20,958 nucleotides of DNA from a virus (lineage: Duplodnaviria > Heunggongvirae > Uroviricota > Caudoviricetes): positions 1 through 20,958 of the IMG/VR virus record IMGVR_UViG_2703718839_000004. The stretch is one strand, 5' to 3'. Of this stretch, positions 14,723 through 15,541 are shown one piece after another. The translations under genes were made by a program, and so were the position numbers. The notes under the pieces were generated by a model that did no database searches, had not been told where the DNA came from, and worked only from the letters and a program-made list of their open reading frames with translations. Each line of letters starts with the position of its first letter. The stretch's first letter is position 1.

Positions 14723-15541
14723 TCACCCCCTGAATCCTTCCGGGATCTGGCTGTAGTCCACGTTGTCGTAACTGGCTTTGAAGTACGGGTCCTCGCGTCT
14801 GACTGCAGATACCGCAGGAACTTCCCAGGATTCTTCGAAATGACGATCCGGGCCAAAGAACGTGACAGCCTGTTTCACAAATTGTGTGCCGCTGTTACCC
14901 ATCGCAGATACCCAGCCCGCGTAGCGTTTCACACCTTCCAGCATGGTTTCGGGGTTTACCCCCTCATTCAAACGGGCTTTCCAGGCTTTGAAGGCTGCAG
15001 ATTTTGAATTGCCACCAGCACGTTTGGGATAGGCCAGCCATGCCTGCTCAAACTCCGGAGAGTATTCCGGTCGGTTTGAACGAACTCGCACAGACTCATC
15101 AGCAGATGCACCAACAGCTATTGGTTCATTGACTGGTTCTTTGACTGGTTCAAAAGAGTGACTGGTTCTGGGTGAATCTCCTGCACTACCCCCTGGTGCA
15201 ACTCCTGCACTACCTGGTGAATTTGCTGCACCAGATAGTGAATTATTTGCACTACCCCCTAGTGAATCTCCTGCACCATCCAGATGAAGGAGATAGATAT
15301 TACTTGAGTTACCTTTTTCACCTTTCCGGGTGACTTTTTTTACCAGCCCGGACTCACAAAGGGCCGCAATATGATTCATCACAGAACGTTTGCTAATCTC
15401 GCACTGGTCAGCAATATGCTGGTAGCTGGGCCAGCACTCACCCTGATCGCTGGCATTATCAGCCAGCTTGATCAGAACCAGTTTTCGCAATGGATTACCC
15501 ACTCGAATTTTCATCGCTTTAACCATCAGCTCCATACTCAT
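14723..15541 (-). CDS. Replication initiator (lambda O-like; N-terminal winged-helix DNA-binding domain, internal iteron origin)
   Basis: 272 aa; N-terminal KLVLIKLADNASDQGECWPSYQHIADQCEISKRSVMNHIAALCESGLV is a typical phage replication-initiator HTH; a low-complexity linker is encoded by direct DNA repeats; C-terminal AWLAYPKRAGGNSKSAAFKAWKARL motif. Confidence 0.75.
   Translation of the reverse strand: MSMELMVKAMKIRVGNPLRKLVLIKLADNASDQGECWPSYQHIADQCEISKRSVMNHIAALCESGLVKKVTRKGEKGNSSNIYLLHLDGAGDSLGGSANNSLSGAANSPGSAGVAPGGSAGDSPRTSHSFEPVKEPVNEPIAVGASADESVRVRSNRPEYSPEFEQAWLAYPKRAGGNSKSAAFKAWKARLNEGVNPETMLEGVKRYAGWVSAMGNSGTQFVKQAVTFFGPDRHFEESWEVPAVSAVRREDPYFKASYDNVDYSQIPEGFRG
15125..15290. repeat. 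Iteron array (candidate origin of replication) inside the initiator gene
   Basis: TGACTGGTTC occurs three times (15130, 15142, 15159); imperfect copies of GTGAATCTCCTGCAC / GCACTACCCCCT(G/A)GTG / CTCCTGCACTACC recur between 15171 and 15276; an AT-rich stretch follows at ~15290-15350. Same ori-within-initiator layout as lambda O. Confidence 0.6.

What the first reader, a model, noticed from the sequence alone, without database searches (positions are those of the whole stretch)
15125..15350. Iteron-type origin embedded in the replication initiator gene, with no recognisable helicase loader nearby
Two families of direct repeats (TGACTGGTTC x3; four or five imperfect copies of a ~22-bp unit around CTCCTGCACTACC / GTGAATCTCCTGCAC) followed by an AT-rich stretch lie inside the initiator ORF, encoding its low-complexity linker, as the lambda origin does in O. 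The downstream genes are a methyltransferase and accessory genes rather than a P/DnaC-like loader; the upstream 278-aa and 78-aa proteins are unassigned and might supply that function.
Basis: partly seen in the sequence, partly recalled or inferred. Interest (0 to 1): 0.45.

Follow-up and report, generated by a model that had tools for sequence, protein, structure and literature searches.

The report
Phage replication origin inside initiator gene
A prophage's replication-starter gene contains its own likely start site for DNA copying (five binding repeats plus a block of about 40 bases kept letter-for-letter across many bacterial genera), and unlike its closest relatives this phage encodes no helper protein to load the DNA-unwinding enzyme.

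Summary
The 272-aa initiator gene (14723-15541, minus strand) of this SfV-type lambdoid prophage carries five dyad-symmetric units, GTGCA-N5-T(T/G)CAC, at 15172-15276, spaced 24/21/21/24 bp. Three exact GAACCAGTCA 10-mers follow at 15130-15168. An AT-rich, low-stability tract lies at 15278-15327.

Comparison of about 200 related loci shows the repeats are DNA elements, not just a translated linker. Units sit in different reading frames and in both orientations. The arm sequences track the recognition helix and wing of the N-terminal winged helix. A roughly 40-nt block holding the 10-mers is conserved base-for-base from E. coli to Pseudomonas and Vibrio through rare codons, while invariant peptide motifs in the same genes use synonymous codons freely.

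No loader is encoded here: neither the window nor the complete SfV genome has a helicase, loader or primase. The 278-aa ORF is a C4/isrK-RNA-controlled Ash antirepressor module. The 78-aa protein is DUF4222 and is not a family-wide companion. Nearest relatives with the same two domains carry a DnaC-like loader plus a DnaB-like helicase. The lone initiators instead share a distinctive 25-aa C-terminal tail.

Verdict: a lambda-like origin in a non-lambda-O initiator family, and a new variant of a known kind. Origin activity and host-helicase recruitment are inferred, not shown.

The parts
14723..15541 (-). Replication initiator gene (272 aa; equivalent to SfV orf39). It has an N-terminal winged helix, a repeat-encoded disordered linker and a C-terminal helical domain with a tail.
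   Evidence: ORF. Pfam HTH_36 E=1.8e-11, with DnaD_N below its cut-off. PHROG 270 'replication initiation protein' E=3e-88. 96-98% DNA identity to SfV, 2H10, Ayreon and mEp460. AF2 model.
15278..15541 (-). Coding region of the N-terminal winged-helix DNA-binding domain (aa 1-88). The predicted recognition helix is aa 51-64 and the beta-wing is aa 67-85.
   Evidence: AF2 pLDDT 80-90. Residues that track the iteron class cluster at positions 50-64 and 69-79, while residues 1-48 are invariant across classes. Synonymous codon use is normal in codons 1-88.
15278..15327 (.). AT-rich, least stable duplex segment of the gene, abutting the first iteron.
   Evidence: GC 0.35-0.375. Nearest-neighbour dG -32.5 against a window mean of -41.5. 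It is not under nucleotide-level constraint in the family.
15172..15276 (-). Iteron array: five dyad-symmetric 15-bp cores GTGCA-N5-T(T/G)CAC at 15262-15276, 15238-15252, 15217-15231, 15196-15210 and 15172-15186, spaced 24/21/21/24 bp. It encodes the linker GAGDSLGGSANNSLSGAANSPGSAGVAPGGSAGDSP.
   Evidence: Equivalent arrays occur at the same gene position in about 80 relatives: 95% of spacings are 21-24 bp, 38% are not multiples of 3, and orientations are mixed. Copy number varies from about 1 to 9 or more between alleles.
15118..15171 (-). Conserved origin-core block: CCA + GAACCAGTCA (15159-15168), a 7-nt pyrimidine spacer, GAACCAGTCA (15142-15151), GAACCAGTCA (15130-15139) and a degenerate GAACCAATAG (15118-15127). 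The first 10-mer is in a different reading frame from the others.
   Evidence: The block is conserved base-for-base in 82 of 87 loci across genera, always 18 nt after the last iteron core. Synonymous sites are fixed, e.g. Arg AGA 79/79 against 5% gene-wide. It is the local GC minimum in the family (0.41-0.45 against 0.55). The paired 10-mer is found only in genes of this family: 114 of 120 viral contigs, with the other 6 truncated or frameshifted.
14807..15064 (-). Coding region of the C-terminal helical domain (about aa 160-245; motif F-E-x-x-W-x-x-Y-P-K-R...A-x-K-A-W). It is the presumed helicase/loader-recruiting domain.
14726..14806 (-). C-terminal tail (aa 246-272, ...REDPYFKASYDNVDYSQIPEGFRG), specific to initiators that have no partner gene.
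   Evidence: Among distinct loci with this C-domain, 35 of 35 with this tail have no partner gene and 10 of 10 without it have a DnaC-like, P-like or helicase partner. The tail is shared with the otherwise different lone initiators of SfII and SfIV.

Best explanation
The region is most likely the replication origin of an SfV-type lambdoid prophage, built like ori-lambda but belonging to a different initiator family (HTH_36-type winged helix rather than Pfam Phage_rep_O).

Proposed mechanism:
1. The early rightward operon, which runs on the minus strand here (cro-like, CII-like, Ash module, DUF4222, initiator), is transcribed through the origin.
2. Dimers of the initiator's N-terminal winged helix bind the five dyad-symmetric iterons (15172-15276). 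These are spaced about two helical turns apart and lie inside the initiator's own coding sequence, so binding would give an O-some-like nucleoprotein complex.
3. The duplex opens next to the array. One candidate site is the family-wide conserved, relatively GC-poor block of 10-mers (15118-15171), which occupies the position of lambda's AT-rich tract. The other is the AT-rich tract on the opposite flank (15278-15327).
4. The C-terminal domain brings in the replicative helicase. Relatives do this through a phage-encoded partner just downstream (DnaC-like loader with or without a DnaB-like helicase, lambda-P-like loader, or primase-helicase). This phage encodes none, so the C-domain plus its distinctive 25-aa tail presumably captures the host DnaB-DnaC complex directly.

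Status of the steps. Shown here: the elements exist; selection acts at the nucleotide level; iteron arms track the DNA-reading residues; the geometry is fixed; partner genes are absent; and the tail correlates with partner absence. Inferred: protein binding to the repeats, unwinding, origin activity and host-helicase capture.
For: Existence and non-randomness of the repeats.

The protein is an initiator: PHROG 270 E=3e-88, 'O-like' PHROGs, HTH_36. Winged helix, disordered linker and helical domain by AF2.

DNA-level rather than protein-level selection on the iterons. Relatives in Pseudomonas, Aeromonas, Shewanella, Marinomonas, Xenorhabdus, Erwinia and Vibrio have 3-7 dyad cores at the same gene position. 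Of their spacings, 95% are 21-24 bp and 38% are not multiples of 3. 19 of 42 loci mix both unit orientations. In the window itself the arms are invariant while the 5-bp spacers differ with amino-acid changes.

Covariation. There are five arm classes (GTGmA/TkCAC, GGGCr/TGCCC, GTGAy/GTCAC, TGyCr/TGGCA and one other). The residues that distinguish the classes cluster in the predicted recognition helix and wing. The mosaic proteins P0067 and P0072 keep our C-half but swap the N-domain and the iterons together.

Conserved block. A ~40-nt sequence is conserved across genera, with Arg AGA 79/79 (5% gene-wide), Ser AGT 81/81 (12%), Ser TCT 75/75 (10%) and Pro CCA 66/68 (24%). The invariant peptides GECWPSYQ and GNPLRK in the same genes vary freely at synonymous sites. 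The 7-nt spacer tolerates F/S/L/P changes. The block always starts 18 nt after the last core and is exclusive to this family.

Same logic as lambda. Ori-lambda lies in the middle of gene O as iterons plus an AT-rich tract, and extra iterons add residues to O (PMC7466680). Here, allele lengths of 242-302 aa differ only by repeat number. One family member pairs with a true lambda-P homologue (PF06992 E=2e-58).

No loader. None is found in the window or in the complete 37-kb SfV genome. The nearest relatives with the same domains carry IstB_IS21/DnaC-like plus DnaB_C genes. Tail against partner is 35/35 and 10/10.
Against: There is no experimental evidence for binding, unwinding or autonomous replication, either for this phage or for any family member in the literature I could reach. 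The SfV genome paper could not be read.

The unwinding site is ambiguous. The conserved block is only mildly unstable in this phage (78th-83rd percentile). The truly AT-rich tract is not conserved at the nucleotide level.

The block always has the same orientation relative to the gene, so an RNA-level role cannot be excluded from sequence alone.

The covariation and tail-partner associations are confounded by shared ancestry: the classes and the tail-bearing proteins are largely clades.

This particular prophage may be rearranged, since lysis genes abut an inverted P2-like tail module, so it may no longer replicate.
Confidence: 0.72

Rival explanations
1. The repeats are only a translated low-complexity linker (a Gly/Ser/Ala/Pro-rich spacer expanded by slippage). 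Any selection acts on the protein, and the DNA has no function of its own.
For: The array encodes a Gly/Ser/Ala/Pro-rich segment that AF2 predicts as disordered. Copy number varies between alleles as expected for slippage. In this window all five units happen to be in frame.
Against: In relatives, 38% of unit spacings are not multiples of 3, and 19 of 42 loci contain units in both orientations, which encode unrelated peptides. The arms are invariant while spacers change amino acids. The first 10-mer is read in another frame than the others. Synonymous sites in the block are fixed on rare codons, while invariant peptide motifs elsewhere in the gene drift.
Confidence: 0.03
2. The dyad repeats are initiator- or repressor-binding operators that regulate expression (autoregulation or a transcription roadblock within the early operon). 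They are not the replication origin, which lies elsewhere.
For: Dyad-symmetric sites bound by winged-helix dimers are typical operators. In iteron plasmids, Rep dimers autoregulate at inverted repeats (established knowledge). Nothing here demonstrates replication.
Against: 3-7 in-phase copies followed at a fixed 18-nt distance by a conserved low-GC block is origin-like rather than operator-like. The position and logic match ori-lambda. No other repeat cluster of this kind exists in the window. The protein belongs to replication-initiator PHROGs and is normally coupled to loader or helicase genes.
Confidence: 0.1
3. The conserved 40-nt block acts at the RNA level (for example translational pausing or coupling, or an sRNA or protein binding site on the early mRNA), or it is a conserved 'linker' that promotes homologous recombination between modules. 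It is not part of the origin.
For: The block always has the same orientation relative to the gene. It lies exactly at a mosaic joint between exchangeable N-halves and C-halves.
Against: The mRNA strand of the region folds no better than shuffles (z = -0.81). There is no Rfam match above chance. The fixed 18-nt distance to the last iteron, in whatever frame, ties the block to the DNA array. Selection for recombination alone is unlikely to hold 40 nt across genera whose genomes differ widely in GC (inference).
Confidence: 0.08
4. A helicase loader is present but unrecognised: the upstream 78-aa (DUF4222) or 278-aa protein, or another small early protein, performs the P/DnaC role.
For: The DUF4222 gene overlaps the initiator start (ATGA) and is of unknown function. 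Small ORFs of varied sequence often abut the initiator start in relatives.
Against: The 278-aa ORF carries C4 and isrK RNAs and an Ash domain, so it is an antirepressor immunity module. It is replaced by Rha in near-identical phages. DUF4222 homologues accompany only the closest relatives, including ASU11, which has its own DnaC-like loader and helicase. SfIV lacks DUF4222 yet is also without a loader. Neither protein has a P-loop.
Confidence: 0.05

Closest known systems
Ori-lambda within gene O of phage lambda, and the six-iteron origins of Stx phages 933W and P27 (O-P module)
   Same: The origin lies in the middle of the initiator gene. It has several dyad-symmetric iterons about two helical turns apart, read by the N-terminal winged-helix domain. 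The iterons encode the inter-domain linker, so the number of iterons changes the protein length. A less stable tract lies next to the array. The C-terminal part handles helicase delivery. The origin lies in the pR-type early operon. (PMC7466680.)
   Different: The N-domain is HTH_36 and does not match Pfam Phage_rep_O. The iteron sequence is different. Where lambda has its AT-rich tract there is a ~40-nt block of GAACCAGTCA direct repeats conserved across genera. The truly AT-rich tract is on the other side of the array. No P gene follows.
Sister prophages of the same initiator family that carry partner genes, e.g. Raoultella/Klebsiella/Citrobacter prophages (P0085, P0077; L298-L300), Pectobacterium phage ZF40 and Klebsiella phage ST13-OXA48phi12.5
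   Same: Same N-domain family, the same placement of iterons, and the same GAACCAGTCA block 18 nt after the last iteron. P0085 and P0077 also have the same C-domain at 68-70% overall identity.
   Different: They are followed by translationally coupled partners: DnaC-like plus DnaB-like (L298-L301), a DnaB-like helicase (ZF40), or a lambda-P-like loader (the Klebsiella phage). The SfV type has none and ends in a different 25-aa tail.
Iteron plasmids whose single Rep protein recruits the host helicase (pSC101 RepA, R6K pi, RK2 TrfA). This comparison rests on established knowledge and was not tested here.
   Same: One element-encoded initiator binds in-phase iterons next to an unwinding element made of short direct repeats, and relies on host DnaB, DnaC and DnaG.
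   Different: There is no Rep_3-type tandem winged-helix match. The origin lies inside the coding sequence rather than beside it. No DnaA boxes were found next to the array.
DnaD-type primosomal/helicase co-loader proteins and phage 'DnaD-like' initiators (PHROG 1701; PDB 2zc2, 2i5u)
   Different: No Pfam DnaB_2/DnaD match for the C-domain and no significant structural match. DnaD proteins are not known to bind iterons within their own gene.

Membership tests
Lambda-type origin embedded in the initiator gene (the ori-lambda kind) | Three or more direct repeats of about 18-24 bp with internal dyad symmetry, spaced about two helical turns apart | tested here: met
   Five cores GTGCA-N5-T(T/G)CAC spaced 24/21/21/24 bp.
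Lambda-type origin embedded in the initiator gene (the ori-lambda kind) | The repeats lie inside the initiator ORF, between the N-terminal DNA-binding domain and the C-terminal domain | tested here: met
   Gene nt 266-370 of 819. AF2 gives a winged helix at 1-89, a disordered segment at 90-157 and a helical C-domain.
Lambda-type origin embedded in the initiator gene (the ori-lambda kind) | The repeats are type-specific and co-vary with the initiator's DNA-binding domain | tested here: met
   Five arm classes. The residues that distinguish them cluster in the recognition helix and wing. The mosaic proteins P0067 and P0072 swap N-domain and iterons together. Caveat: the classes are partly clades.
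Lambda-type origin embedded in the initiator gene (the ori-lambda kind) | An AT-rich unwinding tract directly follows the iterons in the direction of the gene | tested here: inconclusive
   The tract that follows the array is the conserved 10-mer block: GC 0.375-0.425 here, the family GC minimum, but only the 78th-83rd percentile of instability. The strongly AT-rich tract (15278-15327) precedes the array and is not conserved at the DNA level.
Lambda-type origin embedded in the initiator gene (the ori-lambda kind) | A helicase-loader gene (P) lies immediately downstream of the initiator | tested here: not met
   The next genes are Dam, a LexA-DBD protein and RusA. No loader in the window or in the whole SfV genome. 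Other family members do have P-like or DnaC-like partners.
Lambda-type origin embedded in the initiator gene (the ori-lambda kind) | The initiator binds the repeats, and the fragment supports initiator-dependent replication | not testable with these tools
   Needs footprinting or EMSA and a plasmid replication assay.
Lambda O protein family (Pfam Phage_rep_O, PF04492) | Sequence match of the N-terminal domain to the family profile | tested here: not met
   A Pfam scan at E<=0.01 returns HTH_36, DnaD_N (sub-threshold), B-block_TFIIIC and HTH_20, and no Phage_rep_O. PHROGs label it 'O-like' by function only.
DnaD-like primosomal / helicase co-loader proteins | DnaD N-terminal winged helix (PF21984) plus a DnaD/DnaB_2 C-terminal domain | tested here: inconclusive
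Iteron-plasmid Rep proteins (Rep_3 type) | Tandem winged-helix Rep_3 fold or profile | tested here: not met
   No Rep_3 hit in Pfam. AF2 shows a single winged helix.

The most novel reading that the evidence does not exclude
This is a one-protein phage replicon with a previously undescribed, universally conserved origin core. The ~40-nt GAACCAGTCA block, fixed base-for-base across Gammaproteobacteria and exclusive to this initiator family, would be a specific unwinding, helicase-entry or priming element. It might be read by the nearly invariant half (residues 1-48) of the N-domain, possibly as single-stranded DNA. In SfV-type phages, the 25-aa C-terminal tail (EDPYFKASYDNVDYSQIPxGFRG) would replace a phage DnaC/DnaB pair by docking the host DnaB-DnaC complex directly.
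Probability: 0.3. Interest if true: 0.65.

Novelty: new variant of a known kind. Interest (0 to 1): 0.5.

Why it matters
This replication module is very common. DNA similar to it matches 3,129 of 5,426 complete E. coli genomes (564 over at least 80% of the query). It is also present in SfV and other serotype-converting Shigella phages, in cdtI, and in many Stx1/Stx2-converting phages. The papers that typed Stx-phage replication regions state that nothing is known about how the non-lambda ('Eru') modules replicate (PMC8951638).

The analysis gives that module a concrete, testable origin map with three elements: type-specific iterons, an invariant 10-mer core, and a lone initiator with a distinctive tail.

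It also offers a natural comparison for asking how a phage initiator recruits a host helicase without its own loader. The same N-domain and C-domain occur with a DnaC-like loader plus a DnaB-like helicase, and also with neither.

The 40-nt block, held base-for-base inside a coding sequence across genera, is a clear example of overlapping protein-coding and DNA-level constraints. It could also serve as a sequence marker for this origin type.

Tried and rejected
1. First related-loci scan with the whole protein in viral contigs. All 80 loci were at least 99% identical, so they were uninformative for covariation. They were used only for a polymorphism count, which was too sparse to discriminate (7 variable sites in the iteron region).

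2. Literature. Searches for SfV/orf39/origin, lambdoid iterons, the 10-mer itself and 'initiator-solo' found no description of this origin. The Eru papers do not mention iterons. The SfIV paper only lists the module. The SfV genome paper (PMC134923) is not held, so prior notice of the repeats there cannot be excluded.

3. Tidy hypothesis that 'our C-domain means no partner gene': rejected. The C-domain co-occurs with DnaC-like, DnaB-like, P-like and primase-helicase partners. Only the C-terminal tail separates lone from partnered initiators.

5. Host-factor boxes. There is no DnaA-box or IHF consensus and no GATC cluster in the origin region.

6. RNA reading. No Rfam family falls in the repeats, and folding is no better than shuffles. 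No promoter-like site was found, and one terminator-like hairpin is at chance level.

7. DUF4222 or Ash as family-wide companions: jackhmmer on upstream ORFs of 93 loci (including the window) found homologues only in the closest relatives.

8. One call failed on a wrong coordinate, and one script used a wrong start-sequence pattern. Both were redone.
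Full report
CONTEXT

The window is an SfV/e14/CPS-53-type lambdoid prophage. The 2.1 kb around the finding is 96-98% identical to Shigella phage SfV, Escherichia phages 2H10, Ayreon and mEp460, cdtI and many Stx-converting phages. Similar DNA occurs in 3,129 of 5,426 complete E. coli genomes, 564 of them over at least 80% of the query.

The early rightward operon runs on the minus strand. Its members are: a cI-like S24 repressor (17486-18160, + strand), a cro-like gene, a CII/CP76-like gene (16600-17163), a 278-aa ORF (15767-16603), a 78-aa DUF4222 gene (15538-15774), the 272-aa initiator (14723-15541), a Dam methyltransferase (13975-14673), a protein with only the LexA DNA-binding domain, RusA, KilA-N, DUF968/HNH, and Q.

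OBSERVATION

- TGACTGGTTC occurs exactly three times (15130, 15142, 15159) and nowhere else in the window.
- The ~22-bp unit occurs five times. On the coding strand each unit has a 15-bp core GTGCA-N5-T(T/G)CAC, with spacings of 24, 21, 21 and 24 bp.
- The five exact matches to that pattern are the only ones in 21 kb. With one mismatch allowed there are 16 matches against 4.85 +/- 2.5 in shuffles.
- The AT-rich stretch 15278-15327 is the least stable 30-bp duplex of the gene and falls in about the top 1% of the window.
- The repeats encode residues ~89-141. AlphaFold2 predicts this segment as disordered, between a confident winged helix (1-89, pLDDT 80-90) and a helical C-domain.

In the gene's own direction the order is: N-domain, AT-rich tract, iterons, 10-mers, C-domain.

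ARE THE REPEATS DNA ELEMENTS OR ONLY A TRANSLATED LINKER?

I collected relatives in four ways:
- tblastn of each domain against phage records;
- one genome per species;
- exact-protein look-ups;
- a DNA-pattern scan of viral contigs.

Nearly every relative has 3-7 dyad cores of the form 5-N5-5 at the same place in the gene. This holds in Pseudomonas, Aeromonas, Shewanella, Marinomonas, Xenorhabdus, Erwinia, Vibrio, Klebsiella and Pectobacterium.

In 42 distinct loci with the same arm type as ours:
- 95% of spacings are 21-24 bp;
- 38% of spacings are not multiples of three, so successive units are read in different frames;
- 19 loci contain units in both orientations (GTGCAGGAGATTCAC and its complement GTGAATCTCCTGCAC), which encode unrelated peptides.

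In the window itself the arms are invariant, including four third-codon positions in all five units. The 5-bp spacers differ by up to four bases and change the amino acid. A protein-only repeat cannot produce these patterns.

COVARIATION WITH THE DNA-BINDING DOMAIN

The arms fall into classes: GTGmA/TkCAC (ours), GGGCr/TGCCC, GTGAy/GTCAC, TGyCr/TGGCA and one further type.

Aligning the N-domains by class shows that residues 1-48 are almost invariant in all classes and genera. The class-informative positions cluster at 50-64 (the predicted recognition helix) and 69-79 (the beta-wing).

Two mosaic proteins, P0067 and P0072, have a C-terminal half essentially identical to ours from RTSHSFEPVKEPVNEP onward. 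Their N-domain is different, and so are their iterons (GGGCAG/CTGCCC and TGTCA/TGGCA). N-domain and iterons therefore move together, as in the lambdoid O/ori types. The caveat is that the classes are partly clades, so this is support rather than proof.

A CONSERVED SECOND ELEMENT

The three 10-mers are part of a ~40-nt block, CCA GAACCAGTCAC TCTTYT GAACCAGTCAAW GAACC. It is conserved almost base-for-base in 82 of 87 loci, although the proteins are only 40-75% identical and the host genomes differ widely in GC. It always begins 18 nt after the last iteron core (42 of 42).

The first 10-mer is read as (A)GA-ACC-AGT-CA(C), giving R-T-S-H. The second, 17 nt later, is read as GAA-CCA-GTC-A, giving E-P-V.

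A codon control shows selection on nucleotides:

| Codon in block | Observed | Gene-wide use of that codon |
|---|---|---|
| Arg AGA | 79/79 | 5% |
| Ser AGT | 81/81 | 12% |
| Ser TCT | 75/75 | 10% |
| Glu GAA | 80/80 | 39% |
| Pro CCA | 66/68 | 24% |
| Val GTC | 74/78 | 31% |

The invariant peptide motifs GECWPSYQ and GNPLRK in the same genes use synonymous codons freely. The 7-nt spacer between the 10-mers tolerates F/S/L/P changes.

A codon-by-codon scan finds no such constraint anywhere in codons 1-88, including the codons under the AT-rich stretch. The constraint switches on at codon 89, where the first iteron starts.

The block is the GC minimum of the region across the family (0.41-0.45 against 0.55). 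The paired 10-mer is exclusive to this family: of 120 viral contigs carrying it, 114 have it inside an ORF with this N-domain, 5 are cut by the contig end and 1 is frameshifted. A full-text search for the 10-mer found only unrelated primers.

THE MISSING LOADER

The window has no helicase, loader or primase. Neither does the complete 37-kb SfV genome, in which orf39 is the only replication protein.

This is a minority state within the family. Downstream of the initiator, usually overlapping its stop codon, relatives carry one of the following:
- a DnaC-like loader, with or without a DnaB-like helicase or a primase-helicase;
- a DnaB-like helicase alone (ZF40, V039C);
- a true lambda-P homologue (PF06992, E=2e-58; Klebsiella phage ST13-OXA48phi12.5 and 12 others);
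- a primase-helicase;
- in Pseudomonas, an uncharacterised 265-aa protein (phrog_6028).

The nearest relatives with the same N-class and the same C-domain (P0085, P0077, P0074; 68-71% identity) are each followed by an IstB_IS21/DnaC-like gene and a DnaB_C helicase gene. Salmonella P0037 (88% identity) is followed by PerC and Dam, as in the window.

What distinguishes the lone initiators is the last ~25 residues, (R)EDP(Y/M/F)FK(A/S)SY..(V/T)DY(S/N)Q(I/V)P.GFRG. In an independent set of distinct loci with this C-domain, 35 of 35 with the tail have no partner gene and 10 of 10 without it have one. The same tail ends the otherwise different lone initiators of SfII and SfIV. These proteins are close relatives, so the association is a lead and not proof.

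THE C-DOMAIN

The C-domain has the motif F-E-x-x-W-x-x-Y-P-K-R...A-x-K-A-W.
- It hits PHROGs labelled 'DnaD-like helicase loader' (E=1e-32) and 'primosomal protein'.
- It has no Pfam or PDB match, even by profile.
- A domain-only AF2 model on 60 diverse sequences is confident (pLDDT ~90) and shows a compact helical domain.

I treat the DnaD likeness as unproven.

The 278-aa ORF matches the Ash family only from about residue 103-117 onward. Its 5' third contains a C4 antisense RNA (RF01695, 82.8 bits, gathering score 45), an isrK RNA (RF01394, 63.7 bits, gathering score 50) and a weak a1/b1 target match. It is therefore a P1/P7-type antirepressor immunity module, and the ORF is probably over-called. 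GenBank labels SfV orf37 'immunity region'. Near-identical phages carry Rha or Rha-Ash fusions in its place.

DUF4222 homologues were found upstream only in the window and in ASU11, which has its own DnaC-like loader and helicase. The ORF abutting the initiator start in other relatives ranges from 40 to 530 aa.

Neither protein is a credible loader.

MECHANISM

Best-supported reading (confidence about 0.7): a lambda-like origin in a non-lambda-O initiator family.
1. Winged-helix dimers bind the five in-phase iterons within the gene.
2. The duplex opens beside the array.
3. The C-domain delivers the helicase.

Two steps are uncertain.

First, which flank opens. The conserved block occupies the position of lambda's AT tract and is the family's GC minimum, but it is only mildly unstable here. 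The AT-rich tract on the other flank is the least stable segment in this phage, but it is not conserved as DNA.

Second, how the helicase is recruited without a phage partner. The most economical inference is direct capture of the host DnaB-DnaC complex by the C-domain plus tail. The same C-domain normally works next to a phage DnaC-like loader, and E. coli has DnaC.

Rival readings are listed with their evidence: protein-only linker, operator rather than origin, an RNA-level or recombination-linker role for the block, and a hidden loader upstream. The first is contradicted by the data. The others are not excluded but fit the data less well.

COMPARISON AND NOVELTY

The architecture matches ori-lambda and the Stx-phage origins: the origin sits in the middle of gene O, consists of iterons plus an AT tract, and extra iterons lengthen O (PMC7466680). 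Here too, alleles of 242-302 aa differ only in repeat number.

Membership in the lambda O protein family is not met, because there is no Phage_rep_O match. A downstream loader, a defining feature of the lambda module, is also absent.

The papers that typed Stx-phage replication regions list HTH_36 proteins next to Rha/Ash genes (Eru5, 6, 8, 11 and 13). They state that nothing is known about replication of these phages, and they do not mention iterons (PMC8044961, PMC8951638).

I rate this a new variant of a known kind. The kind is familiar. The invariant 10-mer core and the lone-initiator form with its own tail appear undescribed in the literature I could reach. The SfV genome paper could not be read, so earlier notice of the repeats cannot be excluded.

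Interest is moderate (0.5). The origin itself is what a specialist would expect. The base-for-base conserved core, and the natural comparison between the same initiator with and without its own loader and helicase, are directly testable.

Noticed in passing
window 16055-16142 (-), 16167-16243 (-), 16204-16256 (-): A C4 antisense RNA (RF01695, 82.8 bits), an isrK Hfq-binding RNA (RF01394, 63.7 bits) and a weak a1/b1 target match lie inside the 5' third of the 278-aa ORF (15767-16603). Protein-family hits to Ash start only at about residue 103-117. The ORF is probably over-called. The locus looks like a P1/P7 ImmI-type c4-(icd)-ant antirepressor module sitting between CII and the replication gene.
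   Followed up: partly
window 77-7629 (+) versus 7912-18000 (-): The left third of the window is a DNA invertase (resolvase family) followed by a P2-like tail module: sheath, tube, tape measure, gpU and gpD. It is transcribed towards the lambdoid lysis cassette (LysC/Rz-like, GH19 endolysin) and Q, which run the other way. The two blocks converge near 7,650-7,900. This is either a hybrid phage layout or a rearranged or composite prophage.
   Followed up: no
L100-L124 (Pseudomonas prophages), ORF starting about 14 nt before the initiator stop: About 22 Pseudomonas relatives have a 259-268-aa protein (phrog_6028, no Pfam match, no P-loop) translationally coupled to the initiator, in the slot where other relatives have a DnaC-like or P-like loader. 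It may be an unrecognised loader family.
   Followed up: partly
proteins P0168, P0171-P0174, P0179, P0181 and others: Stand-alone proteins of about 110-120 aa consist of the C-terminal 'FExxWxxYPKK...AxKAW' domain alone (25-30% identity to ours). The domain therefore also exists as an independent gene product.
   Followed up: no
close homologues P0001-P0042 (alignment A1): Alleles of this initiator in E. coli and Shigella range from 242 to 302 aa solely through different numbers of iteron units (about 1 to 9 or more; for example GSAGVAP x6 in P0024) and of EPVK units. One allele (P0040) lacks the last iteron and the whole 10-mer block and may be a dead origin.
   Followed up: partly
L094 3217-3339 (SfIV), L091 2785-2919 (SaltyDalty): Other O-like genes have their own internal arrays with different periods: six 15-bp units (TCAAAATCTGACCCG) in SfIV, and four to six 23-bp units (GAAAACCAGCATGCAGGTATGGG) in SaltyDalty. 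The latter period is not a multiple of three.
   Followed up: no
window 16021-16035: A lone dyad site, GTGAAGGTAATTCAC, has arms matching an iteron variant used by relatives (GTGAA/TTCAC). It lies inside the Ash-module ORF. At one mismatch about 5 such sites are expected by chance in the window, so it may mean nothing.
   Followed up: no
window 13652-13978 (-): A 108-aa protein consists of the LexA DNA-binding domain only (PF01726, E=3e-19), without the S24 peptidase domain. It is conserved downstream of Dam in SfV-type phages. Its function is unknown, and it could be a non-cleavable LexA mimic.
   Followed up: no
L131, L136, L142, L144 and others (14 Pseudomonas loci, 'class E'): In these relatives the sequence before the 10-mer block is GGTGTAGGCCCAGAAAGCACCA and does not fit the 5-N5-5 dyad scheme. 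Their iteron structure was not resolved.
   Followed up: no
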